Shown one piece after another: positions 7,141-62,876 of a stretch of DNA of 64,000 bases (position 1 is the stretch's first letter; the number at the start of each line of letters is the position of its first letter). The stretch covers positions 68,174 to 132,173 of the forward strand of contig CALGLP010000015.1 of the NCBI GenBank assembly GCA_937930175.1. Reading direction: 5' to 3'. The position numbers and the translations under genes are program-made. This stretch comes from an uncultured bacterium (lineage in GTDB: Bacteria; Omnitrophota; Gorgyraeia; Zapsychrales; Aceulaceae). A model generated the notes under the pieces. It did not search any database. It was not told the origin of the DNA and saw nothing but the letters and a program-made list of their open reading frames with translations.

Positions 7141-7256
7141 TTTTCTCCTATAGGAATAATTTTTATTAATCACCAAGTCCTCATTCCAGAATCTAAGATA
7201 ATAACAGCATCAAAGCGCGTCCATTGCTGGAGCAAGCCAACCACTCTTTAAAAAGA

Positions 7257-28653: not shown

Positions 28654-29661
28654 TTATACGCCTGGAACGGCGCAAGATTCTCGCACAACAAGTTCTGGGA
28701 CGAGGATTTGCTGAACAGCAGAGTGGCGACGCCCACCAACAATAGCGTTAAGTTGACGAACAGCTTCTTCAGCCATCTTAAACAAAGGCTGACGAATCGT
28801 TGTAAGGCTCACAGAGCTATAAAGACCTGCAGGATTATCATCAAAACCAACCACAGATAAATCTTTAGGAACTTTCAAACCTCTTTCCATAGCAAAATTG
28901 ATAATCTCCAGAGCCATATCATCACTGGCTGCGAAAATCGCGGTAGGACGATCCTTGCCCAGAGAGAGAAACTTCTCCAATCCCTGTCTGGCTGAGCGAC
29001 GGGAATAATCTCCCTCATAAACATAAGATTCATTGAATGGAAGCTTTTTCTGACCTAATCCACTTTTATATCCTTCAAATCGATGCTGCCCGCTTTGAGT
29101 TTGCAAGCCTCCCGTCACAGTGGCAATCTTAACATGCCCCAAACCCGCCAGATGCGCCACAGCCATCTCAGCGCCTTTCGCATTATCGATGGCAATAAAA
29201 TTAACCTTAAGATCATCCACGCGATTATTAATAACCATGCATGGAATCCCTTCTGCAAGAGTAGCCTCAATCTGTTTGCGATTTTCTATAATATCGGCAA
29301 AGATAATGCCTCCCGCATTGCTAATATTAAGAGGAGCATATCCTTTAGTAATATGAAAAATAAGGTCAAGGTGCAAGGCCTCACAAGCATGCCCAACACC
29401 ACGGATAATCTCAATGGCATAAAACGAATGGAAGATACCCGGATACCCGGGCATGACAAGACCTACGGCCGTATTAAGCCCTTTGGCAAGACGCTGAGCG
29501 CTGACATTGGGTTTAAAATTAAGGTGGGCAATAGCTTCTTCAACTTGCGCACGATTCTTGTCAGAAACAGAAGCAACATTATTAATAACACGCGAAACAG
29601 TGGTGATCGACACCCCTGCGCGCTTGGCTACATCGTTAATACTTGCTTTTTTTGTACTCAC
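28654..29661 (-). CDS. LacI-family transcriptional regulator
   Basis: N-terminal HTH (ASINDVAKRAGVSITTVSRVINN) plus a periplasmic-binding-protein-like sugar-binding core. GTG start at 29661. Confidence 0.9.
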   Translation of the reverse strand: MSTKKASINDVAKRAGVSITTVSRVINNVASVSDKNRAQVEEAIAHLNFKPNVSAQRLAKGLNTAVGLVMPGYPGIFHSFYAIEIIRGVGHACEALHLDLIFHITKGYAPLNISNAGGIIFADIIENRKQIEATLAEGIPCMVINNRVDDLKVNFIAIDNAKGAEMAVAHLAGLGHVKIATVTGGLQTQSGQHRFEGYKSGLGQKKLPFNESYVYEGDYSRRSARQGLEKFLSLGKDRPTAIFAASDDMALEIINFAMERGLKVPKDLSVVGFDDNPAGLYSSVSLTTIRQPLFKMAEEAVRQLNAIVGGRRHSAVQQILVPELVVRESCAVPGV

Positions 29662-29670
29662 AGAAAGGTC

Positions 29671-30945
29671 TTATTTTATGGTATCGCCAGCCTGAAAAGG
29701 CATCGATTGTTTCTTAATATCAGCGGCTGATATATCGGTTCGCACTTGGATAATCTCAATTTCACCCACATAGGCATCGCCACGATAAACACTTAAAAGA
29801 TCTCCAATGTTAATGCCGGATTTCTGTCCCAAGCTCACAATCACAAAATTATTTTCCTGATTAACACTGATAATTTCCCCGGATACGTTAATTCCCGGCG
29901 AATCAATCTTTGCAGCCGATGGTGAACCATTAACGATAATCGGAGGCAACATGACCTCTTGCTGGGTCTTCGATGCAGGATCGAGCCGCTCGTTAATATC
30001 CTCTTTAAGCTTTAAGACATCGTCGAGACGATTCTGGATCACAGTCTCAGACTGTGCAAGCTTTTTTTCAATTTCAGCTTTATCTTCTTGAAGCCTCGAA
30101 ATACTTTTTTCAAGAACAATCTTCATCGCGCCCAACTCTTTGACTTGGCCACGAAGAGCAAGATTTTCTTCCTTGATTTTATCAAATTGCTCATTCACAA
30201 ATTTCTTATCATTTTTCTCACGAACAAGATCAATAGAAATATTATCCGCCACATCACCTTTAAGCTTGATTTGTCGCGTGAGCTCTTCTTTTTCTTGCCT
30301 GAGATAACTAATCTCTAGCTCAAGATCTGAATTCTTTTTCTTGAGCTCCTCAATATCCATCGCACTTTGATTAAGCTCATCTTCAAGCTTTCCAATGCGT
30401 AAATTTAACTCCGCTTTCTCTTTAAGGACATCGGACCAATGACTTTCAAGTTGCTTGTTAGGATCAAGCTCAGAGCTTGGGGCAATGACCATTTGACTCG
30501 AAGCACGTTTTTGTTCTTCCGCTAATTGCTTTGCTTCCGCCAAAGCCCTCTCGACCTCCTGAAGCTTTGCCATCGCATCATCACGTTCTTTGCCAACCTT
30601 ACCATAGCGCTCTTTCCACTCGTCTCGCTCATCATTTAATTTCTCGATACGAGACTCAAAATCATTAATCTTTGATGTCAAGTCCTCAATCTCAGATTCT
30701 AACTTGTTTTTCTGACCCATCGCATCGCTGGCTTTCTTCTTAAGCTCATCGCTTTCCGTCAAAAGTTGCTTCTGTTTTTCTCCAAAAGCCGCAAGGTCTT
30801 TCTCATAGCCGGTCACCTTGCCCTGAAGTTGCGCATTATTCTGCTCAAGGCTTGTCTTCTGACTAAACGTCGACAAAGCAACTGCAATGCTCACGACTAA
30901 AAGCAAACCTAAGATCACAATAACTTGTTTCGCGCCTTTGGACAT
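29671..30945 (-). CDS. Membrane-anchored long coiled-coil protein with a C-terminal β-domain, hypothetical
   Basis: N-terminal TM (VIVILGLLLVVSIAVAL) followed by about 300 aa of heptad-rich E/K/L sequence. C-terminal GINIGDLLSVYRGDAYVGEIEIIQV β-segment. Confidence 0.5.
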   Translation of the reverse strand: MSKGAKQVIVILGLLLVVSIAVALSTFSQKTSLEQNNAQLQGKVTGYEKDLAAFGEKQKQLLTESDELKKKASDAMGQKNKLESEIEDLTSKINDFESRIEKLNDERDEWKERYGKVGKERDDAMAKLQEVERALAEAKQLAEEQKRASSQMVIAPSSELDPNKQLESHWSDVLKEKAELNLRIGKLEDELNQSAMDIEELKKKNSDLELEISYLRQEKEELTRQIKLKGDVADNISIDLVREKNDKKFVNEQFDKIKEENLALRGQVKELGAMKIVLEKSISRLQEDKAEIEKKLAQSETVIQNRLDDVLKLKEDINERLDPASKTQQEVMLPPIIVNGSPSAAKIDSPGINVSGEIISVNQENNFVIVSLGQKSGINIGDLLSVYRGDAYVGEIEIIQVRTDISAADIKKQSMPFQAGDTIK

Positions 30946-31069: not shown

Positions 31070-31105
31070 TAGAAAAAATAGGGGGGCAGAAACTTTCTGC
31101 CCCCC
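31070..31105 (-). terminator. Rho-independent terminator downstream of the lipoprotein gene
   Basis: GGGGGGCAG-AAACTTT-CTGCCCCCC hairpin followed on the minus strand by TATTTTTTCT. Confidence 0.7.
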
Positions 31106-31134
31106 TAGAATCCATGACTAAAATAATAACGAAT

Positions 31135-31767
31135 TTATTCGTATCTTAAATCATCTAAATAAAAAATACAATTATCCGGATTCACTTCAACATTCGTTGT
31201 CCAACAAAATCCCCCGCTAATATACGTAAGATCTTTGCCACGTAAATCGATAACATATTGCTTCCATTCAGGAGTTAAAATCACAGGACCAATAAACGCC
31301 GTATCCGTATCTGGATAATCCCCCGTAATCCCACCCATTTTAAATTCTTCAATGCGCTCGCCGCCTTTTTCTCCGCGCGCCCAAAACGTAAGCTTTGTGG
31401 CTCCAGTGAGATTGAACCCACCTTTACGACTACCCCAGTTGTGCGCTGGATTGAGCCAGTACATCCCTGCCCAACGAGCTCCCTCAGTCGAACAAGCAAC
31501 ATCATAAGAGACCTTCAAGCAGGTTGACCCATCATGACAATTCTCCTGCCAACGATCATTAAGCGTCAGGCATTGTCCATCTGGCATAAATCCTGAGGGA
31601 ACATAATGATTGTCTCGTGATCCAATGTTAGTATAAATCGGAAAAGGAATGAAAGGATTTTCTTGTTTCTTGCTAATAGATGCCTTTTCTTTAGAGCTTG
31701 CATTCTGACCGCATCCTAAACAAAAAATAAGACCAAAAATAAAAAACCCTCTTATGACTTTATCCAT
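31135..31767 (-). CDS. Secreted lipoprotein, hypothetical, last gene of the glycan locus
   Basis: Lipobox LGCGQ. Trp/Gly-rich β-type sequence (WAGMYWLNPAHNWGSRKGGFNLTG) reminiscent of carbohydrate-binding β-sandwich modules. No catalytic motif. Confidence 0.45.
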   Translation of the reverse strand: MDKVIRGFFIFGLIFCLGCGQNASSKEKASISKKQENPFIPFPIYTNIGSRDNHYVPSGFMPDGQCLTLNDRWQENCHDGSTCLKVSYDVACSTEGARWAGMYWLNPAHNWGSRKGGFNLTGATKLTFWARGEKGGERIEEFKMGGITGDYPDTDTAFIGPVILTPEWKQYVIDLRGKDLTYISGGFCWTTNVEVNPDNCIFYLDDLRYE

Positions 31768-31834: not shown

Positions 31835-33085
31835 TTATTGCATATCTTTAATTTCTTGCAATCGTTGATCCGCGCCCTCAGATGGCTTCCAAAACCAACC
31901 TTGAGGATCCCAAGATTGAGCAAAATAATATTCTTTCACCACTTTATTAAATGCGGCCGTCGCTTCCGCAAGCTTATTTGCTTTTTTATAGGCATCACCT
32001 TGAATAAAAAGACAAGTCCCAACATCGTTAAGAGCCCAATAAGAAAAAATCTTATCATTATTTTCCCAAGGATATTCCGTTAAAGAATCTTGCATTTCTT
32101 TGGCCTTCGCACCATAAAGCGAAATACATTTATTGGTATAGGTCAAGACACCTTCCAGATCATTCTTGTTGTAAGCATCCCAGGCCTTCGTTGTAAGGGT
32201 TGATGATTTCATATCTCCAAAATCAACATCAATTCCTTTTTTAATAGCATCCAATCGTTCCGCAGCAGCTTCCGCAGGCTTCCAAAACCATCCGCCCACA
32301 TCCCAACATTGACCAAACTTATAATTATTAATGAGCTCCTGGTAGGCTATCTTCGCCTCTTCCATCATCTTGGTTTTGCGATAAATCTCACCTTGGATAA
32401 AAAGACATGTCGCAACATCATTAAGCGCCCAATTTTTAAAAACTTCTTCTTTAGCTCCTTGAGCATAATCTGTCAGGCCAGCTTGCATTTCTTTAGCCTT
32501 GGCACTATAAAGCGAAATACATTTGTTGGTATACGTCAAGACCGATTGAAGATCATTCTTTCCAAAAGCTTCCCAGGCCTTGGTCGTAATCGCTGAGGAT
32601 GACATATCACCAAAATCAATATCAATCCCTTTTTCCATCGCATCCAATTTCTCTGCAGCGGCTTCCGCAGGCTTCCAAAACCATCCACCCACATCCCAAC
32701 ATTGCGCAAATTTATAATTGGCAACAACCTCTTGATACGCGGCCTTGGCTTCATCGATCATCTTCGCTTTACGATAAGCTTCTCCTTGAATAAAAAAACA
32801 TGTCCCCACATCATTCAAAGCCCAATTCTTAAAAATCTCTTCTTTAGGTCCCTGTACATAGTCAGTCAAGGCTGCCTGCATTTTCTTAGCCTGCTCGCCA
32901 TAAAGATCTTTACATTTATTAGTATATGCAAGAACCGCTTCAATATCTCCAGCCTTAAGAGCCTCCCAAGCCTTGGATGCCAGCGTCGTTGAGCGATAAT
33001 CGCCAAAATTGTACGCCGAGGCAACCATGGGGCAAACCACGCCAACACCTAGAATCAACAAAGCTGCAATTACCATTCTTCTCAT
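31835..33085 (-). CDS. Secreted protein made of three tandem copies of an unrecognised ~135-aa module
   Basis: Signal peptide. Each copy carries KAWEA...YTNKC...NDVGTC(F/L)FIQGEAY(R/K)K...(Y/F)KF(A)Q(C/S)WD(V/P)(G/Q)GWFWKP(A/S)E(A/G)A. The repeat is also visible at the DNA level, giving mirror antisense ORFs. AGGAGG RBS. Confidence 0.7.
   Translation of the reverse strand: MRRMVIAALLILGVGVVCPMVASAYNFGDYRSTTLASKAWEALKAGDIEAVLAYTNKCKDLYGEQAKKMQAALTDYVQGPKEEIFKNWALNDVGTCFFIQGEAYRKAKMIDEAKAAYQEVVANYKFAQCWDVGGWFWKPAEAAAEKLDAMEKGIDIDFGDMSSSAITTKAWEAFGKNDLQSVLTYTNKCISLYSAKAKEMQAGLTDYAQGAKEEVFKNWALNDVATCLFIQGEIYRKTKMMEEAKIAYQELINNYKFGQCWDVGGWFWKPAEAAAERLDAIKKGIDVDFGDMKSSTLTTKAWDAYNKNDLEGVLTYTNKCISLYGAKAKEMQDSLTEYPWENNDKIFSYWALNDVGTCLFIQGDAYKKANKLAEATAAFNKVVKEYYFAQSWDPQGWFWKPSEGADQRLQEIKDMQ
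31930..33080 (-). repeat. Three tandem ~400-bp intragenic repeats, about 70-75% identical, encoding the module
   Basis: Direct sequence comparison of 31935-32330, 32340-32740 and 32740-33080. Confidence 0.7.
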
Positions 33086-33185
33086 ACCTATAACCTCCTA
33101 TGATTTTTAAAAAGATTGAAATGGACTTTTTGACTGAATTCAAAAAAAGTATAGCACATGTTTCCAGTCTTTGCCGGAAAATCTT

Positions 33186-35498
33186 TTAGTTCCAAACACC
33201 CTTATAATACTGATAACTTTTTCTAAGTTGTCGCAAAAAAGGACTGTTTTGGCCGTTTCCTTGGCCAATCAGACCAAACCATTCCTCGTACATAAAGCCA
33301 TCCGGAAAAGGCCCTTGGGCTCCCGCGGTCTTATCATGAAAAGCTGGCTCATAATTCTTCCACCATTCATCCAACCACTGAAACACCACTCCGCCCAAAG
33401 CATTACCAGTGCCTTCCGTCGTTCCCGCAGCATTAAAAACCATATCATCCCACGAACCCTTATGATAATCCGCCTGGGCCTGTTCTGCGCCTTCGCGCTC
33501 AAGATGATTGGCAAACGCCGGACATCCGTATTCGGTAATAAACGCAGGCTTGCCCGTGGCATCAAAAACCTGTTCCCAAAATGACCCAAAACCATAATCA
33601 CCGCGATAAGCGTTTGATCCAAAAATATCCACAGACGGACAATTTTCAGCAAAAAGATCTAAAAACAGCGTATCCCCGTTGCAGATCGCCACAGGATGAT
33701 TTTTATCAATGGACTTCATCATCTGCGCGACCTCTTCAACAAATTTATAATAACTTTCTGGCTTCTTGTCCGCGTTGCACCCTAGCCCATAGTTGTTCTC
33801 ATTTCCTAAGAGCCAAAACAAAATATACGGTTCATCCTTAAATTCTTCAACCATCTTGCGAACCGACTCCGTCATATTCTTTTTATGTTCAGGATTGTCA
33901 TAATCTGTCCCCTCAAACCAGCTTGCCCCGGATCCAAAAGCATACTTCCCCAAAAAATCCCCCATAATGATCATAATGCCATAATCATGGTAAAGCTTCC
34001 TCAAGATCTCTTTGTTAGGCTTATGCGGTTGCTGATACACACGTATAGAATTAACACCCATTTCTTTAAGAAGTTGAAAATCTCCAACAACTGGCTCATC
34101 CGCATCTTGCTGATCATTTAAATTCTTATCAACCCAAGAATCAAAAGGACCGTCCGGAAGCCCGTTCTTGTTCGAATCTTCCGTCTGCCAATCAGCCAAG
34201 GTACCATTGTCAGGGCTTTGCCCAACCTTGGTCGCATTATACGTCACAGCTTTGATCATCGCTGGGTTCCCATCCACCTGAAGCTGCCAATGTCCAGTCT
34301 TTTTAGACTGAACCAAACGGACATGACTTCCACCAACACTATGTTTAACATCTGTTATTTTTTTCTGAGAAGCCTTGCGAGAAAAATAGGCAACAATCTT
34401 TTCCTGAAACTTTTCCCAAGATGTTTTTTTATAAAGCTTGCCTGGCCAGGTCAACACAATATCATTGGCAACATCATTATCAAACCCATTAATGACTTGA
34501 ATTTTAGCGCCAACATATTTCAAATCAAGCTCAGGATGAAGAGCCACCAGATGCCGGATCTTGGCCACCGCCGCTTGACCAGGATACCAGGGTGTATTCC
34601 AATACGTACGTCCCACAGATTGCGGAAAGTGGATCTGAATCGCGCGATAGCATTTAATCGCCTCATACCACATCTTCGCGCGCTCAAACAAAAGCCCCAT
34701 ATAAAAAAGCTTAACTCCCCAAGCCTCAGGAGAGGAGGCCCATTTATAAATGGCTTTCTGCAGATCATCCGTATGCACAAAATCCCAATGACTACTGGTC
34801 AACTTCCCTTCCTTTAAAAGTTGCTTATAAATAGGATCCTTAAGAAGGGCGCTAGTATTGGGATAAATACCTTCTCCCACTGCCTTCATGAGCCCTTCTG
34901 GATCATCAATAACATAAGAATAATTCTTCGTGCCAACATCAATAAAGCGGCCATACTGCTCATAACGAACAATATCCTCGGTCCCAGGGAAACTTAACGT
35001 GGGAAGGGTTTGGGGCCCACGATCAACCTTGACAACCTGCTTTTCTTGATATTTGCCATCGAACTTGTCAATACTTGCCTGGGCTTTTTCTGCCGGCGTC
35101 CAATACCAACCACGAGGGTCCCACGCCTGCGCCCAATAAAATTCTGCAATGATCTTTGAAAAAAGCTCCCGAGACTTCTCTATTTCACCTTTTTTCATTA
35201 ACGCTTCCGCATGAATAAACAGTGCTGTCCCAACATCATTAAGTTCGGGATACTGCCCTTCGGTTCCTTTGCTGGGAAGACTCGTCAACGACGCTTGTTG
35301 CCTTTTTGCCTCCTCACTATATTGCGCCACGCACTCATTAGTCAAACGTTCAACTTCTTCAAAATTATTACTCGATGACGCTTCCCAGGCTTTGCGCACA
35401 TACTCCGCCGAAGAAAGTGTTTGCGCAAAAACTTGTGATGATAAAAACCCACTAGCAGCCAACAAACAAAACCCTACCAAGAAAGTATATTTTTTCAT
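33186..35498 (-). CDS. Clan GH-A glycoside hydrolase (GH5/GH2-like TIM barrel) with one N-terminal copy of the same module
   Basis: GVNSIRVY and LLGNENNYG (acid/base NE) plus AFITEYGCP (nucleophile E) indicate a retaining (β/α)8 GH-A enzyme. N-terminal AEYVRKAWEA...NDVGTALFIHAEAL...FYWAQAWDPRGWYWTPAEKA matches the repeat module. Its start overlaps the permease stop (TAATG). Confidence 0.65.
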   Translation of the reverse strand: MKKYTFLVGFCLLAASGFLSSQVFAQTLSSAEYVRKAWEASSSNNFEEVERLTNECVAQYSEEAKRQQASLTSLPSKGTEGQYPELNDVGTALFIHAEALMKKGEIEKSRELFSKIIAEFYWAQAWDPRGWYWTPAEKAQASIDKFDGKYQEKQVVKVDRGPQTLPTLSFPGTEDIVRYEQYGRFIDVGTKNYSYVIDDPEGLMKAVGEGIYPNTSALLKDPIYKQLLKEGKLTSSHWDFVHTDDLQKAIYKWASSPEAWGVKLFYMGLLFERAKMWYEAIKCYRAIQIHFPQSVGRTYWNTPWYPGQAAVAKIRHLVALHPELDLKYVGAKIQVINGFDNDVANDIVLTWPGKLYKKTSWEKFQEKIVAYFSRKASQKKITDVKHSVGGSHVRLVQSKKTGHWQLQVDGNPAMIKAVTYNATKVGQSPDNGTLADWQTEDSNKNGLPDGPFDSWVDKNLNDQQDADEPVVGDFQLLKEMGVNSIRVYQQPHKPNKEILRKLYHDYGIMIIMGDFLGKYAFGSGASWFEGTDYDNPEHKKNMTESVRKMVEEFKDEPYILFWLLGNENNYGLGCNADKKPESYYKFVEEVAQMMKSIDKNHPVAICNGDTLFLDLFAENCPSVDIFGSNAYRGDYGFGSFWEQVFDATGKPAFITEYGCPAFANHLEREGAEQAQADYHKGSWDDMVFNAAGTTEGTGNALGGVVFQWLDEWWKNYEPAFHDKTAGAQGPFPDGFMYEEWFGLIGQGNGQNSPFLRQLRKSYQYYKGVWN

Positions 35499-36343
35499 TA
35501 TCCCGCCACCGCCCCTGCGCAAAGGCCCTTAATAATATGTTTTTGCATAAAAAGATAAACCAGCACCACCGGTGCCACGGTAATCGAAAGACCTGCCATC
35601 AATAACGGATAGTCAACGCTATGCGATCCCTGAAAAACCATCAACCCACGCTGAAGGGGCATCAAAGATTGATCGTTAAGCAACAACATCGCAAGCACAT
35701 ATTCGTTCCAAACATTTAAAGTATTAAAAATAATGATCACGGCAATCGCTGGACGCGCCAAAGGCAAGGCCACGTGCAACCAAATACCAATACGTGAACA
35801 CCCATCCATACGTGCCGCATCTTCAAGCGCAGAAGGCATTTTATCAAAAAATGTTTTTAACATGTAGATGCTTAGCGAAAGCCCAACATTGATCATGCAA
35901 AGAATATAGCCGATGCGGGTGTTTGCCAAATGAAGCTTGGTCATCAAGACATACAACGGAACAAAACTCCCCGGAAGAGGGATCATCATCGCGGCCAAAA
36001 AAATATAAAAGAAAAAATTCTTCCCTGGAAACTTTAAGCGCGAAAAAGCATACGCAGCCAAAGACGCAATAAGGACAATGCCAAACACAACACACACTGT
36101 ATAAAGAACGCTATTCAAGAAATATGTCGCAAAGCCTCCGGCAGTCCAAGCCAGGTAAAAATTCTTAAAATGTAATGATTGCGGAATAAAAGACTTGTCA
36201 GTAAAAATCGTTTCATTGGTCATCAACGCTGAGCGCACCATCCACAACAAAGGAAACAAACACGTTGCCGCAACCGCCATGAGAAAAATATGCGTCAAAA
36301 TAGAGGTCAGTGTCTTTGCCGCTCGATATTTATTATGAAACAT
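35498..36343 (-). CDS. Carbohydrate ABC transporter permease (MalG-like)
   Basis: 6 TM helices. EAA-like loop (ALEDAARMDGCSRIGIWLHVALPLARPA). Confidence 0.85.
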   Translation of the reverse strand: MFHNKYRAAKTLTSILTHIFLMAVAATCLFPLLWMVRSALMTNETIFTDKSFIPQSLHFKNFYLAWTAGGFATYFLNSVLYTVCVVFGIVLIASLAAYAFSRLKFPGKNFFFYIFLAAMMIPLPGSFVPLYVLMTKLHLANTRIGYILCMINVGLSLSIYMLKTFFDKMPSALEDAARMDGCSRIGIWLHVALPLARPAIAVIIIFNTLNVWNEYVLAMLLLNDQSLMPLQRGLMVFQGSHSVDYPLLMAGLSITVAPVVLVYLFMQKHIIKGLCAGAVAG

Positions 36344-36360
36344 TATGAATTCTCAACCGC

Positions 36361-37290
36361 TTATTCTTGTTTAAACTTTCGTGAGATTTTATTAAGCGTA
36401 AATGAAAACACCATCAAAATAAGACCAAAAACAATGCCCAACGCACAGGCATAACCAAAACGGCTGGTTCCTGTCATCGAGGCCAAAATGCGCGTCACCG
36501 GGACTTCGGTATGATAAACTAGGCCTTGGCCCACCATGGACAAAACGAGAACAAAAACCTGCATCGAACCCAAAATCGTCAGGATCATGACCATGACAAA
36601 AACAGGGATCATCATGGGGATCGTCACATTCTTAAAAATACTAAAAGATCCAGCCCCATCCACACGCGCGGCTTCATAAAGTTGCCGGTCAATCGTTTGC
36701 AGCCCTGCCAATAAAATAATAAAACCCCAACCAAATCCTTTCCAGCTATGAACAATCGCAATACACGTGAGCGCGGTTTTAGGATCCGAAAGCCAGGCAT
36801 GAACAAGATGATTCATATGAATCTTCGTCAGAAAATAATTAAGAAGACCAACATGCTCACCATTTTGCATCCCCGCATACAAAATCCACTGCCAAATAAG
36901 CCCGACCACAACCTCTGACAAAACCGGAGGAAGATAAAAAACAACACGATAAAACTTACGTAAACGAATATCGCGATCACACGAAAGCGCCAGAGCGAAT
37001 GCCAAGGCATTCTGAAAGGTTAGGGCAATAAGCGTAATATACGCCGCATGCCACATGGACAGCCACCAGACGCCATCTTGCAAAATTTCCTGAAAATTAT
37101 CAAAACCAATAAACTGACTGTTAAGACTAATCCCATTCCATTCTCGAAGAGAAAGAATAAAAGTTTGAACAAAAGGATAAATATAAAAGACCGAAAAAAT
37201 AAGAACAGCAGGAAGGATAAAAAAATAGCCACCTAGAAGCTCTCTTAACCCCTCAAACGATATTTTTCTTGTGTTCGCGGTCATTTCCAT
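36361..37290 (-). CDS. Carbohydrate ABC transporter permease (MalF-like)
   Basis: 6 TM helices. EAA loop (LYEAARVDGAGSFSIFKNVTIPMMIP). Confidence 0.85.
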   Translation of the reverse strand: MEMTANTRKISFEGLRELLGGYFFILPAVLIFSVFYIYPFVQTFILSLREWNGISLNSQFIGFDNFQEILQDGVWWLSMWHAAYITLIALTFQNALAFALALSCDRDIRLRKFYRVVFYLPPVLSEVVVGLIWQWILYAGMQNGEHVGLLNYFLTKIHMNHLVHAWLSDPKTALTCIAIVHSWKGFGWGFIILLAGLQTIDRQLYEAARVDGAGSFSIFKNVTIPMMIPVFVMVMILTILGSMQVFVLVLSMVGQGLVYHTEVPVTRILASMTGTSRFGYACALGIVFGLILMVFSFTLNKISRKFKQE

Positions 37291-37299
37291 GAGCTCTTG

Positions 37300-38583
37300 C
37301 TATCGCTTCTTCTGCCTTTCCATTTCCTGTTGCTTAACTTTTTGGACCTCCGCAGCGATTTTCGCAGGCTCTGCCTCACCGATGAGGATTGCCTGAATAC
37401 CCTTATCAAAGGCCTCGACGACCAGGGGATCTTCATTATACTTCCAAATCGAAGGATGCGTTGTCAAATCCATCGCGCTTGCAAAATCCGCTAAGACTTT
37501 AGGAATAAGCGGCAAAGCCTCCTTATTTGCAGGCAGATTCTTGGTTTCCTGAGCAAGAAAAACTTGTTGCTCTTTAGCCGTTAACCACTTTAAGAAATCA
37601 ACAGCCAACTTTTTATTTCTTGAAATATCATTCACAACAAAGGACGATCCTGCCCCACCCCATATCAGCATAGGCCTTTCAGGATTAATCCGAGGCGGTA
37701 ACATCACGCCATAACGCAGAGCAGAGTTCATCTTATCGTAAACGTTAACACACCAAGAACCATTAAAAGCAAAGGCTGCACGCTCAAGAGCAAAATCCTG
37801 CTCAGCATATTTATTACCCTTAGTCACAATACCTTCGATCAAAACTTTTTTGTCCCGCAATGTTTTAAAAACATTAAAAACCTTAATCCAATCTTCATCT
37901 GTATAAGGAACTTCTCCCCGATAAGTAGCCATCACCTTGTCTTCGCCCATCACATTAAACGCATAATTTGAGGCAAAGCAATCAATCATCCAAATCTCTC
38001 CCCACCCAGAAACAAAACCGCTGATACCAACACGATTTAAGGCTGCAATGGCATTTAAAAATTCGTCGAAAGTCGTTGGAAAAACTTTGATCCCGGCTTT
38101 GGCCAAGAGATCCTGATTATAAAGCATCTGGATGTTCGTCACATCAATGGGAACGCCATAAAGACCAGGTTTAATTTTATAGATATTATCAACTTCAAAA
38201 CGATTCACATCCAAGGCCTTCTCAAATAAACTCTTTTCCCAGGCTGCGTCGTCTTTCTGGAATTCCTGCGTTAAATCAGCAATAAAACCGCTCTCGATAA
38301 AAGAAACGAGCTTCTTTTTTTCACCTAAAACTCCAAAAATCTCTGGGAGGACTCTCGCCTGAGCTGCGGCAATAATTTTTCGAGAATAAATGTCTGAAGG
38401 CGCATACAATTCAAAGACAACATCAATCCCTGTTTGTTTTTTGTATTGTTGGGCAAGCTTAACAAAGGCATCTTGTCGATCAGTCATCCAGTGCCAGACA
38501 GTAACTGTGTTAGATTGTTTTGCGGAAGAGCATCCTAAGGCAAAAAAAAGGAAGGAAAGGACAACAAAAAACATTTTTTTCAT
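37300..38583 (-). CDS. ABC transporter extracellular solute-binding protein (family 1, sugar), lipoprotein
   Basis: Lipobox (LGCSSA). About 427 aa with periplasmic-binding-protein composition. GGAGG RBS. First gene of the importer operon. Confidence 0.8.
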   Translation of the reverse strand: MKKMFFVVLSFLFFALGCSSAKQSNTVTVWHWMTDRQDAFVKLAQQYKKQTGIDVVFELYAPSDIYSRKIIAAAQARVLPEIFGVLGEKKKLVSFIESGFIADLTQEFQKDDAAWEKSLFEKALDVNRFEVDNIYKIKPGLYGVPIDVTNIQMLYNQDLLAKAGIKVFPTTFDEFLNAIAALNRVGISGFVSGWGEIWMIDCFASNYAFNVMGEDKVMATYRGEVPYTDEDWIKVFNVFKTLRDKKVLIEGIVTKGNKYAEQDFALERAAFAFNGSWCVNVYDKMNSALRYGVMLPPRINPERPMLIWGGAGSSFVVNDISRNKKLAVDFLKWLTAKEQQVFLAQETKNLPANKEALPLIPKVLADFASAMDLTTHPSIWKYNEDPLVVEAFDKGIQAILIGEAEPAKIAAEVQKVKQQEMERQKKR

Positions 38584-38716: not shown

Positions 38717-38998
38717 GGTAACCCCATTTTGACATCCATCAACCCCGCCCAAAGCCAGGTTGATATTCTGCGTAGGCAGATGATTTTGAAAACGCAGTAT
38801 AGCATAAAGGCTTTTCCTTGTCAAAATTCTAAAAAACGATTCAAAAACCCTTATTTTTACTTTTTTCTCTTTGTCTTTGTCTTTTTTAAGAAATAAATAC
38901 TGCGGGTTGCCTTGCTTTTTGGCGCTTGAGCATGCTATACTTAATTTAATTCTCATATATAATAAAATATTACCATAATATATCCGCGTAAAAAATTT

Positions 38999-41914: not shown

Positions 41915-44332
41915 TTAACCTAGAATAACACGAACCTGATGGGTCTTGCCATCGTTAAAGACAGGCAAGAGATTGCCGTCAAGGGCACGGCCATCAAGAA
42001 AGACTTCCTTGACACCGTGTTCTTTGCCATGAGGATTTTCAATCGTAATGGCATAAACACTTCCTCGAAATGGCCGACGGACAAAACACGTCTTCCAGGC
42101 GCGAGGAATGGAGGGATCGATACGAAGACCGTTATATTCTCGGCGCGCACCTAAAAGCCATTCGGTGGCGCACATAAAATTCCAACCCGCTGTCCCCGTA
42201 ATCCATGTAAACGCTCCTTCACCATAGCGATAAGGATTTTGAGGGCCAACCAAATACTCCGCATAGGCATAGGGTTCAGCCTTGTAAAGGTCCATATCTT
42301 TTTGCGCGTTAGGCATAATCTTCTTCATTGCTTCATAGGCTTTATCGCCATGCCCAATGGTCGCGTAAGCCACCGCCATAAATGTAGCCGCGTGACAAAA
42401 AACCGCCGCATTCTCCTTGGTCCCTTCCGAAAACATACTGATGCGTCCCAAGCGCTTAACCCAAGACGAAAAAGCTGGATAAAAAAGCGCGAGCCCATGC
42501 TGACCGTTAAGATAACGATCAACATTCTTCAAAATCGTTTTGAGGCGTTGATCTCTCGCCACACCAGAAAGGATCGCCCAGGCCTGAGTATTGAGGAAAA
42601 TCTTTCCCTCTTTATCTTTGTGGCTGCCGTACACTTGCCCTTGATCATCAAAACCACGCGAATACCACGCCCCATCCCATCCCTTATCATTGATACGCTT
42701 ATCCATCACATCCGCCATTTGAGAATATTTTCGTGCCTTTTCTTTTTCACCAATAAATTCACAAAGGTCAACGAGCATCTTAAGCGATCGCACCAGAGCC
42801 TGCGCCAACCACACGCTATCACCCTTATGCTTAATACCAGCAGCGTCAATAGCATCGTTCCAATCCGCATGGCCAATCAACGGAAATCCCCGCGCGCCCG
42901 TATCCGAAAAACAAAACGTCAAATTCTTTTCCAAGTGTTCCAGGAGCGTTCCTGTGCCATCTTCTTGAGCTGGACCTTTCCAATTCTTATTTTCATGCCA
43001 GCCATCAATCCATCGGTCTTTAATGTAGGCGATCTTTTCCTGCAGGATACCGGTATCTCCCGTCTCCTTGATATACGCACACACTGTTGCGGTAAGCCAC
43101 ACCTGATGATCTTTGTTGGGTAAAAATTTATGTGGACCAACGGTGTCTGACCAGCCCGGAGCGCAAGTCCCATCTCGACGGATAAGAGAGGCCAATTTTA
43201 AGATTTTTTGGCGTGTTAAATCAGGATTAATTGATGCGATCGATTCAGAATCTTGGCACGAGTCTCGATATCCGCGGCCGCCAGATCCTTCATGAAAGAA
43301 GCTGGGAGAGCGGGACCAGGTATTGCAAACATACATTTGGTATTTCAACCAAACATTGACGATCGTATTAAAATCTGCATCCGGTGTCTTAACCTCAATA
43401 TTCCCTAAAATTCTTTTTCGCCATAAAGCCTTGGTTGCTTCAAACTCTTTTTTAGCCTTCGCGATATTTTTATATTTTGCCAAAAGAGTTTTGATGGAGC
43501 CAACCTTTTCGGTCTGCCCCAAAACAACTGTAAATTCAACGCTTTGCCCTGGCTTAAGATGAACCACATGCTTAAAAGAGCCAATCCCGTCTTCGCCAGA
43601 ACACAGCGGAAAATCTTTAAAATGACCGTCGACAACAGCCTCAGGCTTTTCTTCCGAATTATAGCGTCCTAAAAAACTTCGTTTATGCGTGCACGCTCCC
43701 TTAGGCTCAAGGGAGGAGGCAAAAAAGATCAAACTCGCAAAGGGCTGAATATTCATTCCTTGCCACTGCGCTGTCTTTTTAGCAAAAATAGCTTTTTGTT
43801 TCTTATCAAACCAGATGCGGTTATAAAGATTCATGATATTGCGATAGCGCAACTCTTCATGATAATCCCCAATCAAAAATTCAACATACGGAAAAATTTC
43901 TACCGTCTTGGCCTTGTTCGTCGTGTTCGTCACAGTGGCAAGCCAGACTTCACAATCATCATGCTCGGGAACAAAATAACTGACGTCTGATTTGACGCCA
44001 TAATACGTTGACTGAATCGTTGTGTACCCTAATCCGTGGTGGCAGGCATAGGCAGAGGGTTTTTTGCGCATCGGCTGATACGTCGCGGACCAGGCCTTCT
44101 TGCCCTCGCGCATAAAAAGATATTTTCCAGGCCGATCAAGATGATAATTTTCAGGAAGCCAGCGCGTCACGCGATTGGTTCGGCAATCTTTATAAAAACT
44201 GTATCCGCCGGCACACTGGGAAATAATCGAGCAATACCGATCGTTAGTTAAATAATTGATCCACGGATAAGGGGTTTGAGGAGACGTAATGATGTATTCT
44301 GAGCTGTCCGGAGAAAAATGGCCATATGACAT
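41915..44332 (-). CDS. GH94-family glycoside phosphorylase (cellobiose/cellodextrin/laminaribiose phosphorylase-like)
   Basis: The N-terminus MSYGHFSPDSSEYIITSPQTPYPWINYL matches the conserved GH94 start M-x-F-G-x-F-D...EY-x-I-x-x-P-x-TP-x-PW-x-NYL. 805 aa, with an (α/α)6 catalytic region. Confidence 0.7.
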   Translation of the reverse strand: MSYGHFSPDSSEYIITSPQTPYPWINYLTNDRYCSIISQCAGGYSFYKDCRTNRVTRWLPENYHLDRPGKYLFMREGKKAWSATYQPMRKKPSAYACHHGLGYTTIQSTYYGVKSDVSYFVPEHDDCEVWLATVTNTTNKAKTVEIFPYVEFLIGDYHEELRYRNIMNLYNRIWFDKKQKAIFAKKTAQWQGMNIQPFASLIFFASSLEPKGACTHKRSFLGRYNSEEKPEAVVDGHFKDFPLCSGEDGIGSFKHVVHLKPGQSVEFTVVLGQTEKVGSIKTLLAKYKNIAKAKKEFEATKALWRKRILGNIEVKTPDADFNTIVNVWLKYQMYVCNTWSRSPSFFHEGSGGRGYRDSCQDSESIASINPDLTRQKILKLASLIRRDGTCAPGWSDTVGPHKFLPNKDHQVWLTATVCAYIKETGDTGILQEKIAYIKDRWIDGWHENKNWKGPAQEDGTGTLLEHLEKNLTFCFSDTGARGFPLIGHADWNDAIDAAGIKHKGDSVWLAQALVRSLKMLVDLCEFIGEKEKARKYSQMADVMDKRINDKGWDGAWYSRGFDDQGQVYGSHKDKEGKIFLNTQAWAILSGVARDQRLKTILKNVDRYLNGQHGLALFYPAFSSWVKRLGRISMFSEGTKENAAVFCHAATFMAVAYATIGHGDKAYEAMKKIMPNAQKDMDLYKAEPYAYAEYLVGPQNPYRYGEGAFTWITGTAGWNFMCATEWLLGARREYNGLRIDPSIPRAWKTCFVRRPFRGSVYAITIENPHGKEHGVKEVFLDGRALDGNLLPVFNDGKTHQVRVILG

Positions 44333-62667: not shown

Positions 62668-62876
62668 TTCGCTATCCTCCTTTTTGTTCCTTGGCCTCCC
62701 CCATCCACTATGGAGCGGGAAACGCAAGGAAAATCAAATCCATACTAAAAGTATGGCATACGAGGGGAGAATTTCAAGGGGATAGGGGGTTTTTGGGGAA
62801 AGCGCTTTCATCGACGAGAAAGTCAAAATAGATGAAAAAATAGGAAATAATTAGGCCGGGAAATGGCTAAACAACA

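What the first reader, a model, noticed from the sequence alone, without database searches (positions are those of the whole stretch)
31835..35498. Unrecognised ~135-aa module: three copies in a secreted protein and one copy at the N-terminus of the adjacent GH-A glycosidase
The module has the consensus KAWEA-x10-YTNKC-x25-NDVGTCxFIQGEAYRK-x12-AYQE-x6-YKFAQCWDVGGWFWKPAEAA. It occurs three times in tandem in ORF 31835..33085, both as DNA and protein repeats, and once before the TIM-barrel of the hydrolase 33186..35498. Both genes sit in a sugar ABC-importer operon. A module shared between a catalytic protein and a stand-alone multi-copy secreted protein behaves like a carbohydrate-binding or substrate-targeting domain, but it matches no CBM family I know. 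The invariant WDxGGWFWKPxE aromatic cluster is a plausible ligand-binding site.
Basis: partly seen in the sequence, partly recalled or inferred. Interest (0 to 1): 0.55.

Follow-up and report, generated by a model that had tools for sequence, protein, structure and literature searches.

The report
TPR-like partner domain of GH158-type glucanases
The repeated ~131-residue unit is real and belongs to a large, unnamed family of exported TPR-like helical domains that, in Omnitrophota and related phyla, almost always accompany one clade of beta-glucan-cleaving enzymes (fused or next door); this makes it a good but unproven candidate for a new kind of sugar-recognition module.

Summary
Observation confirmed: ORF 31835..33085(-) is a signal peptide plus three tandem ~131-aa modules (domain E 1e-64 to 1e-68; DNA period 393). 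ORF 33186..35498(-) carries one copy (E 8e-45) upstream of a clan GH-A barrel.

The module is not fold-less. An AlphaFold model (pLDDT 95) is all-helical and TPR-like, with a Trp-rich beta-hairpin. Pfam TPR models match one 28-residue helix pair per module, just below threshold for a single module. The other ~100 residues match no family or solved structure.

The family is large: 1375 representatives at 50% identity, 1-7 copies per protein. It occurs mainly in Omnitrophota, Kiritimatiellota and Victivallales.

Its constant companion is a GH158-type beta-glucanase. The two are fused in the window and in a collinear operon found in up to 73 of 80 Omnitrophota loci. Elsewhere they are adjacent genes (27 of 38 loci of the close GH158 clade, against 0 of 35 distant ones).

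The module is also fused to a PF11790 glycosidase, a GT2 synthase, an anti-sigma factor and a Ser/Thr kinase.

Best reading (about 0.5): a non-catalytic beta-glucan recognition or targeting domain. Main rival (about 0.3): a TPR protein-docking domain.

The next gene encodes a CBM4/11/30-like lipoprotein.

The parts
31835..33085 (-). ORF A: exported 416-aa protein, a signal peptide plus three tandem modules and nothing else
   Evidence: Orthologs in 80/80 related loci usually have 2 modules.
33014..33085 (-). ORF A signal peptide (aa 1-24, cleavage ...VASA|YNFGD; no lipobox)
   Evidence: Read from the sequence. In single-module homologs the mature N-terminus starts at the DFGD motif.
32621..33013 (-). 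Module copy 1 (aa 25-155), N-type
   Evidence: HMM i-E 3.5e-68. AF2 model pLDDT 95.4. Tree.
32228..32620 (-). Module copy 2 (aa 156-286), N-type; the lineage-specific extra copy
   Evidence: HMM i-E 5e-64. Clusters with copy 1 and with the N-terminal modules of 2-module orthologs.
31838..32227 (-). Module copy 3 (aa 287-416), C-type
   Evidence: HMM i-E 4.6e-65. Clusters with the C-terminal modules of orthologs.
33186..35498 (-). ORF B: exported 770-aa glycosidase. Signal peptide, module, ~290-aa middle region, GH158-related clan GH-A barrel
   Evidence: Same architecture in 66 of 80 related loci.
35046..35423 (-). Module copy in ORF B (aa 26-151)
   Evidence: HMM i-E 7.9e-45. 36% identical to copy 1.
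34548..34718 (-). Possible degenerate half-module in ORF B (aa 261-317: TPR pair plus YWNTPWYPGQAA). Tentative.
   Evidence: Pfam TPR_6 stretch at aa 264-294. Family HMM i-E 7.3, not significant. The homologous region in L088 scores i-E 1.7e-4.
33189..34178 (-). Catalytic (beta/alpha)8 domain of ORF B (aa 441-770). Acid/base E567 (GNE), nucleophile E656 (TEY).
   Evidence: phmmer to GH158 structures 9oro 1.5e-14 and 6pal 2.6e-12. HHalign to a bona fide GH158 profile: probability 99.0, E 3.8e-18. Pfam GH2_C 3.7e-14.
31135..31767 (-). 210-aa lipoprotein, CBM-like beta-sandwich, last gene of the unit
   Evidence: No Pfam or NCBIfam hit. 1307 homologs. AF2 pLDDT 86.5. Foldseek hits CBM30, CBM11 and CBM4 at about 1e-6. 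Present in 74/80 loci.
35498..38583 (-). ABC sugar importer: SBP lipoprotein (37300..38583) and two permeases (36361..37290, 35498..36343). The last permease's stop overlaps the ORF B start.
   Evidence: Conserved upstream of the glycosidase in about 60/80 loci.
38796..38824 (-). Best promoter-like site (11/12, TG-extended) upstream of the SBP gene
   Evidence: Consensus match only.
31079..31107 (-). Terminator-like hairpin (13-bp stem, 8 GC pairs, T-run) right after the lipoprotein gene
41915..44332 (-). GH94 disaccharide phosphorylase. In 25 related loci it lies directly upstream of the SBP gene. In this window it is separated by an opposite-strand 966-aa ORF.
   Evidence: Pfam GH94 7e-107. 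Closest to cellobiose phosphorylase 3qde, 4e-151. Synteny.
28654..30945 (-). Downstream conserved pair: membrane-anchored coiled-coil protein (29671..30945) and LacI-family regulator (28654..29661)
   Evidence: Conserved in 64 and 59 of 80 loci.

Best explanation
The ~131-aa unit is a member of a large, so far unnamed family of Sec-exported helical domains derived from the TPR fold. It consists of two TPR-like helix pairs, a long connecting helix, a family-specific Trp-rich beta-hairpin (CWDxxGWFWKP) and a capping helix.

Shown: it is the dedicated accessory partner of GH158-type beta-glucanases in Omnitrophota, Kiritimatiellota and Victivallales. It is either fused to the enzyme (the window's ORF B) or encoded by an adjacent, sometimes overlapping, gene. 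In the Omnitrophota operon it is additionally present as a stand-alone 2-3-module exported protein (the window's ORF A).

Inferred: the module is a non-catalytic ligand-recognition domain for the enzyme's beta-glucan substrate or its oligosaccharide products.
- The conserved loop motifs (the N-terminal DFGDxxS, ALNDVGT at the start of helix 4, and the Trp hairpin) all lie at the N-terminal ends of the TPR 'A' helices. They would therefore form one composite surface.
- On the enzyme, the module would target or retain substrate.
- As a multi-copy free protein, it would capture glucan chains by avidity next to the CBM-like lipoprotein and hand products to the ABC importer. The GH94 phosphorylase would then split the imported disaccharide.
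- On anti-sigma factors and kinases, it would act as the extracytoplasmic sensor of the same ligand.
For: Reality and fold:
- HMM domain E-values of 1e-64 to 1e-68 (three copies) and 8e-45.
- AF2 model with pLDDT 95.4 and pTM 0.90: six helices plus a hairpin.
- Only weak, generic TPR matches in the PDB.

Family size:
- 857 hits.
- 1375 representatives at 50% identity, 1-7 copies per protein.
- At least 565 genomic stretches.

Partnership with GH158-type barrels:
- A collinear operon, SBP-permease-permease-[module+GH]-[module x2-3]-lipoprotein, in 80 loci that are nearly all Omnitrophota (up to 73/80 with the GH; 66/80 with the full module+GH architecture).
- In Victivallales a bona fide GH158 (9.5e-81 to PDB 9oro) lies directly upstream of a single-module gene, with a GH81 gene nearby.
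- In three Kiritimatiellota-type places the module gene overlaps the start of the gene for a ~440-aa barrel protein by 14 nt; two of those barrels were read and are 60-62% identical to that GH158.
- Reverse test: 27/38 loci of the close GH158 clade have a module gene within 3 kb, against 0/35 distant GH158 loci with full flanks.

Ligand rather than one fixed protein partner:
- The module is also fused to a different glycosidase family (PF11790, P0160), to a GT2 synthase together with a GH-A barrel (P0177), and to a lectin-like PF06439 domain (P0204).
- It forms the extracytoplasmic C-terminal domain of a FecR-type anti-sigma factor. That factor sits beside an ECF sigma factor and about 2 kb from another GH158 plus single-module pair.
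- It also forms the extracytoplasmic part of a Ser/Thr kinase. From my own knowledge, this is the distribution seen for CBMs, including the CBM-bearing RsgI anti-sigma factors of Clostridium thermocellum.
- The most conserved columns over 402 domain instances are WALNDVxT and AQCWDPxGWFWKPA: aromatic plus acidic/amide residues, as in sugar-binding sites.

Pathway coherence:
- A characterized GH158 of the clade nearest the module-linked enzymes acts on beta-1,3 and mixed-linkage glucans and releases a disaccharide (PMC13195107).
- The operon encodes an oligosaccharide ABC importer and, in 25 loci, a GH94 disaccharide phosphorylase.
Against: - No binding data exist.
- No known CBM family has a TPR or all-helical fold of this kind, and TPR domains usually bind proteins or peptides.
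- The operon already encodes a conventional CBM4/11/30-like beta-sandwich lipoprotein.
- Overlapping module and GH158 genes suggest fixed stoichiometry, as in protein complexes.
- I could not obtain model coordinates, so the claim that the conserved Trp, Asn and Asp residues are exposed and clustered is topological inference, not measurement.
- The Trp hairpin is degenerate in some fusions (P0177, P0148).
- One sampled single-module gene has no glycosidase nearby (P0059).
- About a quarter of close-clade GH158 loci lack the module within 3 kb.
- The GH94 resembles cellobiose phosphorylase more than laminaribiose phosphorylase, so the linkage type is uncertain.
Confidence: 0.5

Rival explanations
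1. Protein-docking or scaffold domain. As in most TPR proteins, the module binds a protein partner: the GH158-type barrel or its C-terminal domain, another module, or a cell-envelope protein. ORF A, with 2-3 modules, would then be an adaptor that assembles enzyme(s), and perhaps the CBM-like lipoprotein, into a complex near the ABC importer. It would not touch the glycan.
For: - TPR-like fold and TPR_6 sequence match.
- A fused-or-adjacent (Rosetta-stone) pattern with GH158-type enzymes, including 14-nt gene overlaps typical of co-translated subunits.
- A separate, conventional CBM-like protein is available for glycan binding.
- Weak resemblance to CpoB/YbgF and BamD TPRs, which are envelope protein binders.
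Against: - The module is fused to unrelated catalytic domains (PF11790, GT2) and to sensors. That is hard to reconcile with one specific protein partner.
- The lipoprotein is absent from the non-Omnitrophota contexts.
- 16 of 27 adjacent pairs are divergently transcribed rather than co-translated.
- The most conserved residues are loop Trp, Asp and Asn rather than the concave-groove residues used by peptide-binding TPRs (topology is inference).
Confidence: 0.3
2. Dedicated periplasmic maturation factor, chaperone or inhibitor of the GH158-type enzyme. The small exported TPR protein would stabilise, escort for secretion, or hold inactive the partner glucanase.
For: - Tight one-to-one gene pairing with GH158 in several lineages.
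- JGI names some members after YfgM, which from my own knowledge is a TPR-like periplasmic chaperone-type protein; the name match appears, and there is a weak Pfam TPR_21 hit.
Against: - A chaperone or inhibitor is not expected to be permanently fused to its client (ORF B), multiplied up to 7 times in one protein, or used as a sensor domain on anti-sigma factors and kinases.
- The YfgM and TPR_21 similarity is far below threshold.
Confidence: 0.1
3. Exopolysaccharide-handling TPR. Like the TPR parts of BcsC, PelB, AlgK and PgaA, the module would guide a self-made beta-glucan during synthesis or export, with the glycosidase as the processing enzyme.
For: - One protein fuses a GH-A barrel, two modules and a cellulose-synthase-like GT2 (P0177).
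- From my own knowledge, TPR plus glycosidase pairs are a recurrent feature of exopolysaccharide systems.
Against: - In the window and in 80 related loci the genes sit with an ABC importer, a LacI repressor and a GH94 phosphorylase. That is a catabolic layout.
- No synthase or outer-membrane export barrel is conserved in these loci.
- In P0177 the modules have lost the Trp hairpin.
Confidence: 0.05
4. Ordinary TPR protein with no functional link to the glycosidase. The shared module would reflect generic TPR similarity and chance adjacency.
For: TPR repeats are extremely common, and Pfam labels these proteins simply as TPR.
Against: - The 131-aa unit is conserved as a whole, with family-specific motifs outside the TPR pair.
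- E-values between copies are 1e-45 or better.
- Its association with GH158-type genes holds in both directions and across phyla.
Confidence: 0.02

Closest known systems
TPR_6-type tetratricopeptide repeats (Pfam PF13174; YbgF/CpoB and BamD-like periplasmic TPRs)
   Same: One helix pair per module (residues ~72-100) matches TPR_6, TPR_2 and TPR_8. The whole model is stacked antiparallel helices with a capping helix. The domain is exported to the cell envelope like CpoB and BamD.
   Different: Only about 28 of 131 residues are covered, and a single module scores below Pfam's threshold. The family-specific DFGD, ALNDVGT and CWDxxGWFWKP motifs and the beta-hairpin are absent from these families. 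NCBIfam YbgF and BamD models score far below cutoff (24 vs 90 bits, 15 vs 81 bits). The genomic partner is a glucanase, not Tol-Pal or Bam.
Carbohydrate-binding modules (CAZy CBMs), including CBM-bearing RsgI anti-sigma factors of Clostridium thermocellum (functional analogy, from my own knowledge)
   Same: A discrete non-catalytic module. It is appended to several different carbohydrate-active catalytic domains, occurs in tandem arrays and as a stand-alone exported protein, and forms the extracytoplasmic domain of an anti-sigma factor next to the cognate enzyme gene.
   Different: No sequence or fold similarity to any CBM. The fold is all-helical. Binding is undemonstrated.
SusD-like glycan-binding proteins
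   Same: From my own knowledge, SusD-like proteins show that a TPR-built helical scaffold can present a glycan-binding surface. Like them, the module is an accessory to glycan-utilisation loci.
   Different: No SusD Pfam match. The module is about 131 aa, against about 550 aa for SusD. There is no lipid anchor and no SusC partner. The locus uses an ABC importer.
GH158 endo-beta-1,3-glucanases (PDB 6pal BuGH158; 9oro processive GH158; PMC7157763, PMC13195107), for the catalytic domain of ORF B and for the module's partner enzymes
   Same: The partner enzymes in Victivallales and Kiritimatiellota are bona fide GH158 (9.5e-81 to 9oro). The ORF B barrel is homologous (HHalign probability 99%, E 3.8e-18) with both catalytic Glu aligned.
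   Different: ORF B is only about 27% identical over 219 columns. It lacks the C-terminal domain of GH158 structures and instead has a ~415-aa N-terminal extension after the signal peptide (module plus middle region). Published GH158 work does not mention any TPR accessory.
TPR domains of exopolysaccharide systems (BcsC, PelB, AlgK, PgaA)
   Same: From my own knowledge, these are periplasmic TPRs that work with a glycosidase or deacetylase on a polysaccharide. One family member is fused to a GT2 synthase.
   Different: The window's context is catabolic (importer, LacI, phosphorylase). There is no porin fusion and no specific sequence match.

Membership tests
TPR superfamily | Sequence match to a 34-residue TPR helix-turn-helix motif model | tested here: met
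   ORF A: TPR_6 57.1 bits vs cutoff 26.3, TPR_2 39.8 vs 27. 51/73 family members hit TPR_6 at E<=1e-3. Caveat: one motif per module, and a single module scores 15.5-24 bits, below cutoff.
TPR superfamily | Fold of stacked antiparallel helix pairs ending in a capping helix | tested here: met
   AF2 model (pLDDT 95.4) has helices 8-20, 24-47, 64-82, 86-99 and 115-127. All the best Foldseek PDB matches are TPR domains, but weak (best E 0.12, TM 0.63; none at E<=1e-3).
CAZy carbohydrate-binding module | Discrete, independently folding non-catalytic module found within carbohydrate-active enzymes | tested here: met
   N-terminal module of the GH158-related ORF B and its orthologs. Fusions to PF11790 (P0160), a GH-A barrel (P0185) and GH-A plus GT2 (P0177). 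Confident stand-alone fold.
CAZy carbohydrate-binding module | Sequence or fold similarity to an existing CBM family | tested here: not met
   No CBM family in Pfam or NCBIfam scans. No CBM in PDB sequence searches or the Foldseek search.
CAZy carbohydrate-binding module | Demonstrated carbohydrate-binding activity | not testable with these tools
   Needs binding assays. There is only indirect support from domain architectures and gene context.
YbgF/CpoB (tol-pal) and BamD families | Score above the curated NCBIfam cutoff for TIGR02795 or TIGR03302 | tested here: not met
   TIGR02795: 24.3 bits vs 90.1. TIGR03302: 14.6 bits vs 81.4.
SusD-like proteins | Match to SusD/RagB family models | tested here: not met
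   No SusD/RagB family among the Pfam hits at E<=1.
GH158 (catalytic domain of ORF B) | Significant similarity of the catalytic (beta/alpha)8 domain to GH158 members | tested here: met
   phmmer 1.5e-14 (9oro) and 2.6e-12 (6pal), over about 130 residues. Profile-profile probability 99.0, E 3.8e-18, 219 columns, 27% identity.
GH158 (catalytic domain of ORF B) | Clan GH-A catalytic pair: acid/base Glu in the NE motif and nucleophile Glu in the TE motif | tested here: met
   GNE567 and ITE656 align with the NE and TEF motifs of 9oro and of the GH158 profile.
GH158 (catalytic domain of ORF B) | C-terminal domain following the barrel, as in solved GH158 chains | tested here: not met
   Bona fide GH158 (L081) aligns to 9oro through residue 423, including the post-barrel domain. 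ORF B ends with the barrel, and the HHalign match stops at template column 289 of 437.
GH158 (catalytic domain of ORF B) | Assignment by CAZy and beta-1,3-glucanase activity | not testable with these tools
   No CAZy or dbCAN classifier was available and no enzymology could be done. ORF B may fall in a separate GH158-related (sub)family.

The most novel reading that the evidence does not exclude
The module founds an all-helical, TPR-fold carbohydrate-binding module family specific for beta-glucans (probably beta-1,3-linked). PVC-group bacteria and Omnitrophota would use it in three ways: appended to glucanases, as free multivalent glucan-capturing proteins, and as the ligand-sensing domain of anti-sigma factors and kinases that control glucan utilisation.
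Probability: 0.4. Interest if true: 0.7.

Novelty: new variant of a known kind. Interest (0 to 1): 0.5.

Why it matters
GH158 enzymes are emerging as important beta-1,3-glucan (laminarin, curdlan) degraders. Their accessory machinery is known only for Bacteroidota, where it is SusC/D plus surface glycan-binding proteins.

This work identifies what appears to be the counterpart in Omnitrophota, Kiritimatiellota and Victivallales. It is a conserved ~131-aa exported TPR-like domain family with over a thousand 50%-identity clusters and no family-level annotation. It is tied to one GH158 clade and is reused on regulators.

If it binds glucan, it would add a new fold class to carbohydrate-binding modules. 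It would also give a handle on glycan sensing in poorly studied, mostly uncultured phyla. If instead it docks proteins, it would define a new enzyme-assembly system.

Either way it gives a concrete annotation for many 'hypothetical/TPR' proteins, and it defines a testable, compact operon model for carbon acquisition in Omnitrophota.

Tried and rejected
- Model coordinates are not exposed. I therefore could not compute solvent exposure or clustering of the conserved Trp, Asn and Asp residues. The 'composite surface' is argued from TPR topology only.
- Sequence searches of the PDB with ORF A and with the family profile found nothing specific.
- I suspected a second, degenerate module in ORF B (aa 261-317). 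It is not significant in the window (i-E 7.3) and only marginal in a homolog, so it is kept as tentative.
- I considered that the substrate is strictly beta-1,3-glucan with laminaribiose as the imported product. However, the GH94 is much closer to cellobiose phosphorylases (4e-151) than to laminaribiose phosphorylase (6e-44), so linkage specificity is left open.
- Contexts of the kinase fusion (P0263) and the GT2 fusion (P0177) were on contigs too short to be informative.
- The 'beta-glucanase precursor' name on some single-module GenBank proteins could not be traced to any NCBIfam model or paper. I do not use it as evidence.
- Literature searches for GH158, Omnitrophota and TPR found no description of this module.
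- Chance adjacency and generic-TPR explanations were rejected on the two-way association statistics.

Full report

Yes. ORF A (31835..33085, minus strand, 416 aa) is a signal peptide followed by three head-to-tail copies of a ~131-aa unit and nothing else. ORF B (33186..35498, minus strand, 770 aa) carries one copy right after its signal peptide.

- A profile HMM of the family gives domain E-values of 3.5e-68, 5e-64 and 4.6e-65 in ORF A and 7.9e-45 in ORF B. It gives no hit in any other ORF of the window.
- The repeat is also visible in DNA: period 393, 2.4 copies, 76% matches, score 1031. Pairwise DNA identity is 63-72%.

One correction is needed. In ORF B the module (aa 26-151) is separated from the barrel (aa ~441-770) by about 290 residues. 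Within that stretch, aa 261-317 looks like a decayed half-copy. This is not significant in the window (i-E 7.3) and is marginal in a homolog (1.7e-4).

**2. What is the module?**

It is partly recognisable.

- Pfam TPR_6 and TPR_2 hit one helix pair per module. ORF A as a whole passes the threshold (57.1 vs 26.3 bits). A single module alone scores 15.5-24 bits, just under it, and only over residues ~72-100. Of 73 family members, 51 hit TPR_6.
- An AlphaFold2 model built on 73 homologs is very confident (pLDDT 95.4, pTM 0.90). It shows helices 8-20, 24-47, 57-61, 64-82, 86-99 and 115-127, plus a two-stranded hairpin exactly at CWDVGGWFW.
- Foldseek against the PDB returns only weak, generic TPR domains (best E 0.12; none at E<=1e-3).
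- PDB sequence searches return only consensus TPRs and CpoB at E>0.002.

So the unit is a TPR-derived domain. About 100 of its 131 residues, including its hallmark motifs, are not covered by any existing family model. NCBIfam has no model for it.

**3. How widespread is it?**

Very.

- The word-indexed search found 857 homologs. The best 120 are 119-229-aa proteins or gene fragments; the complete ones are mostly ~150-aa proteins with a signal peptide and one module.
- The exhaustive search of 50%-identity representatives found 1375 members (948 at E<=1e-10), with 1 to 7 copies per protein.
- The genome collection holds at least 565 encoding stretches.
- Named sources are Omnitrophota, Kiritimatiellota, Victivallales and one Desulfobacteraceae bin.
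- Over 402 domain instances, the most conserved columns are WALNDVxT, AQCWDPxGWFWKPA and KAW.

**4. Genomic company**

*The Omnitrophota operon.* The best 80 genomic loci are nearly all Omnitrophota, including Ca. Aceula species. They share one collinear arrangement: (GH94)-SBP-permease-permease-[module+middle+barrel glycosidase]-[module protein]-[210-aa lipoprotein]-[coiled-coil protein]-LacI. Of the 80 loci, 73 have the barrel, 74 the lipoprotein and about 60 the transporter. The shortfalls are mostly contig ends.

*The transcription unit in the window.*
- The ORF B start overlaps the permease stop (TAATG).
- The best promoter-like site precedes the SBP gene.
- A 13-bp GC-rich hairpin with a T-run follows the lipoprotein gene.

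The unit therefore appears to be SBP-P1-P2-ORF B-ORF A-lipoprotein.

*Copy number.* The module protein normally has two modules. Three occur only in the window, L001, L004 and L045. A neighbour-joining tree separates N-type from C-type modules. It shows that the extra copy is a duplication of the N-type module, apparently arising independently in three lineages.

**5. The enzyme partner**

*ORF B.* Its barrel hits GH158 structures best (9oro 1.5e-14, 6pal 2.6e-12). A profile of 25 orthologs aligns to a profile of bona fide GH158 with probability 99.0 and E 3.8e-18 over 219 columns. The clan GH-A catalytic motifs (GNE567, TE656) are in register. It is thus a distant GH158 relative that lacks the family's C-terminal domain.

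*Outside the Omnitrophota operon* the single-module gene sits beside true GH158 genes.
- In Victivallales it lies directly downstream of a GH158 (9.5e-81 to 9oro), with a GH81 gene nearby.
- In three Kiritimatiellota-type places it overlaps the start of the gene for a ~440-aa barrel protein by 14 nt; the two barrels that could be read are 60-62% identical to that GH158.
- In another contig the order is LacI, module, an ORF B-like glycosidase and a GH26-like gene.
- One sampled Omnitrophota single-module gene had no glycosidase nearby.

*The reverse test.* Among metagenome loci retrieved with a GH158 profile, 27 of 38 close-clade loci have a module gene within 3 kb: 9 upstream on the same strand, 2 downstream and 16 divergent. 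Among more distant GH158 loci with full flanks, 0 of 35 do.

The module and this GH158 clade are therefore a fused-or-adjacent pair.

**6. Other fusions**

The module also occurs with the following:
- a PF11790 glycosidase core (P0160; from my own knowledge this Pfam corresponds to GH128 beta-1,3-glucanases);
- a second GH-A barrel protein (P0185);
- a GH-A barrel plus a cellulose-synthase-like GT2 (P0177, with degenerate hairpins);
- a PF06439 lectin-like domain (P0204);
- CHB_HEX_C and RHS proteins;
- a Ser/Thr kinase, followed by a TM helix and two modules (P0263);
- a FecR-type anti-sigma factor, in which the module is the C-terminal extracytoplasmic domain (P0227).

That anti-sigma gene overlaps an ECF sigma gene. 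It lies about 2 kb from another GH158 (53% identical to the Victivallales one) followed by a single-module gene (E 2e-56).

**7. The neighbour**

The 210-aa lipoprotein encoded right after ORF A has no family annotation and 1307 unannotated homologs (those with a source name are Omnitrophota). Its model (pLDDT 86.5; >90 over most of residues 40-210) is a beta-sandwich. The best structural matches are CBM30, CBM11 (including a mixed-linkage-glucan complex) and CBM4, at about 1e-6. The operon therefore already encodes a conventional CBM-like protein.

**8. Mechanism**

*Shown:* an exported TPR-like domain family that partners a GH158 clade, within a beta-gluco-oligosaccharide import operon.

*Inferred, and my preferred reading (about 0.5):* the module recognises the glucan substrate or its products. 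The reasons are as follows.
- It is combined with several unrelated carbohydrate-active catalytic domains.
- It is multiplied in tandem.
- It is used as the outward-facing domain of an anti-sigma factor next to the cognate enzyme. This is the pattern of CBMs, including the CBM-bearing RsgI sensors (my own knowledge).
- Its invariant residues are loop Trp, Asp, Asn and Lys. By TPR topology these all sit at the N-terminal ends of the A helices, so they would form one surface.

*A coherent pathway:*
1. The exported GH158-type enzyme (a close characterized relative releases disaccharide from beta-1,3 and mixed-linkage glucans; PMC13195107) cuts the glucan.
2. The ABC transporter imports the product.
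3. The GH94 phosphorylase splits it.

*Main rival (about 0.3):* the module is a protein-docking TPR that assembles the enzyme, ORF A and perhaps the lipoprotein. This is favoured by the fold, by gene overlaps suggesting stoichiometric complexes, and by the presence of a separate CBM-like protein.

*Minor rivals:* a chaperone or inhibitor of the glucanase (about 0.1), an exopolysaccharide-handling TPR (about 0.05), and a generic unrelated TPR (about 0.02, effectively excluded).

The GH94 is closer to cellobiose than to laminaribiose phosphorylases, so the linkage type stays open.

**9. Comparison with the known, and novelty**

The module is a member of the TPR superfamily by fold and by one motif. 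It is not a member of the YbgF/CpoB, BamD, SusD or any CBM family (membership table). Published GH158 work and Omnitrophota genomics that I could search do not mention it.

I rate it a new variant of a known kind: a distinct, unnamed TPR-derived domain family with a specific enzymatic partner.

Interest is moderate (0.5). The association is robust and new, and the operon is a compact model for carbon acquisition in uncultured phyla. However, the key functional claim is untested. If glucan binding were shown, it would be a first TPR-fold CBM family and a new glycan-sensor domain (probability about 0.4, interest about 0.7).

Noticed in passing
window 31135-31767 (-): A 210-aa lipoprotein with no Pfam or NCBIfam match and 1307 unannotated homologs (those with a source name are Omnitrophota). 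Its AF2 model is a beta-sandwich whose best PDB matches are CBM30, CBM11 and CBM4 (about 1e-6). It is probably an unclassified glycan-binding lipoprotein family, and it is always encoded right after the module protein.
   Followed up: yes
L094 1628-7144: An ECF sigma factor overlaps a FecR-type anti-sigma factor whose C-terminal extracytoplasmic domain is the module. About 2 kb downstream lie a bona fide GH158 and a single-module gene. This looks like a dedicated sensor for the same system.
   Followed up: partly
window 32228-32620 (-); L001, L004, L045: The third module is a duplication of the N-type module. The tree suggests it arose independently in three lineages. Two modules (one N-type, one C-type) is the ancestral and usual state.
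   Followed up: yes
proteins P0056, P0059, P0068, P0103 (GenBank MBF0330465.1, MBL8013598.1, MCX7007743.1): Some ~150-aa single-module proteins are named 'beta-glucanase precursor' in GenBank although they have no catalytic domain. No NCBIfam model or paper explains the name. It may be guilt-by-adjacency or a legacy name transfer.
   Followed up: partly
window 38999-41899 (+): A 966-aa exported protein with one N-terminal TPR motif and otherwise no family match. It lies on the opposite strand between the SBP gene and GH94. Homologs occur in only 5 of 80 related loci, at varying positions (L001-L003 upstream; L060 and L064 between the lipoprotein and coiled-coil genes). It may be an outer-membrane component.
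   Followed up: no
window 29671-30945 (-): A 424-aa protein with an N-terminal membrane anchor, a long coiled coil and a small C-terminal domain. It is conserved between the lipoprotein gene and LacI in 64 of 80 loci but lies after the terminator-like hairpin. Its role relative to the operon is unknown.
   Followed up: no
window 41915-44332 (-): The GH94 phosphorylase is far closer to cellobiose and chitobiose phosphorylases (3qde 4e-151) than to laminaribiose phosphorylase (6ggy 6e-44). This fits poorly with a purely beta-1,3-glucan pathway.
   Followed up: partly
protein P0177 (locus L178 1930-5538): A single 1202-aa protein fuses an ORF B-like GH-A barrel, two modules with degenerate Trp hairpins, TM helices and a cellulose-synthase-like GT2. 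This hints at a biosynthetic use of the module in some organisms.
   Followed up: partly
window 58132-62727 (-): A 1531-aa ORF with no Pfam match at E<=1e-5.
   Followed up: no
window 2812-7176 (-): A 1454-aa protein combining an S8 subtilase, FG-GAP repeats and an fn3 domain. It is a large exported protease-like protein unrelated to the finding.
   Followed up: no
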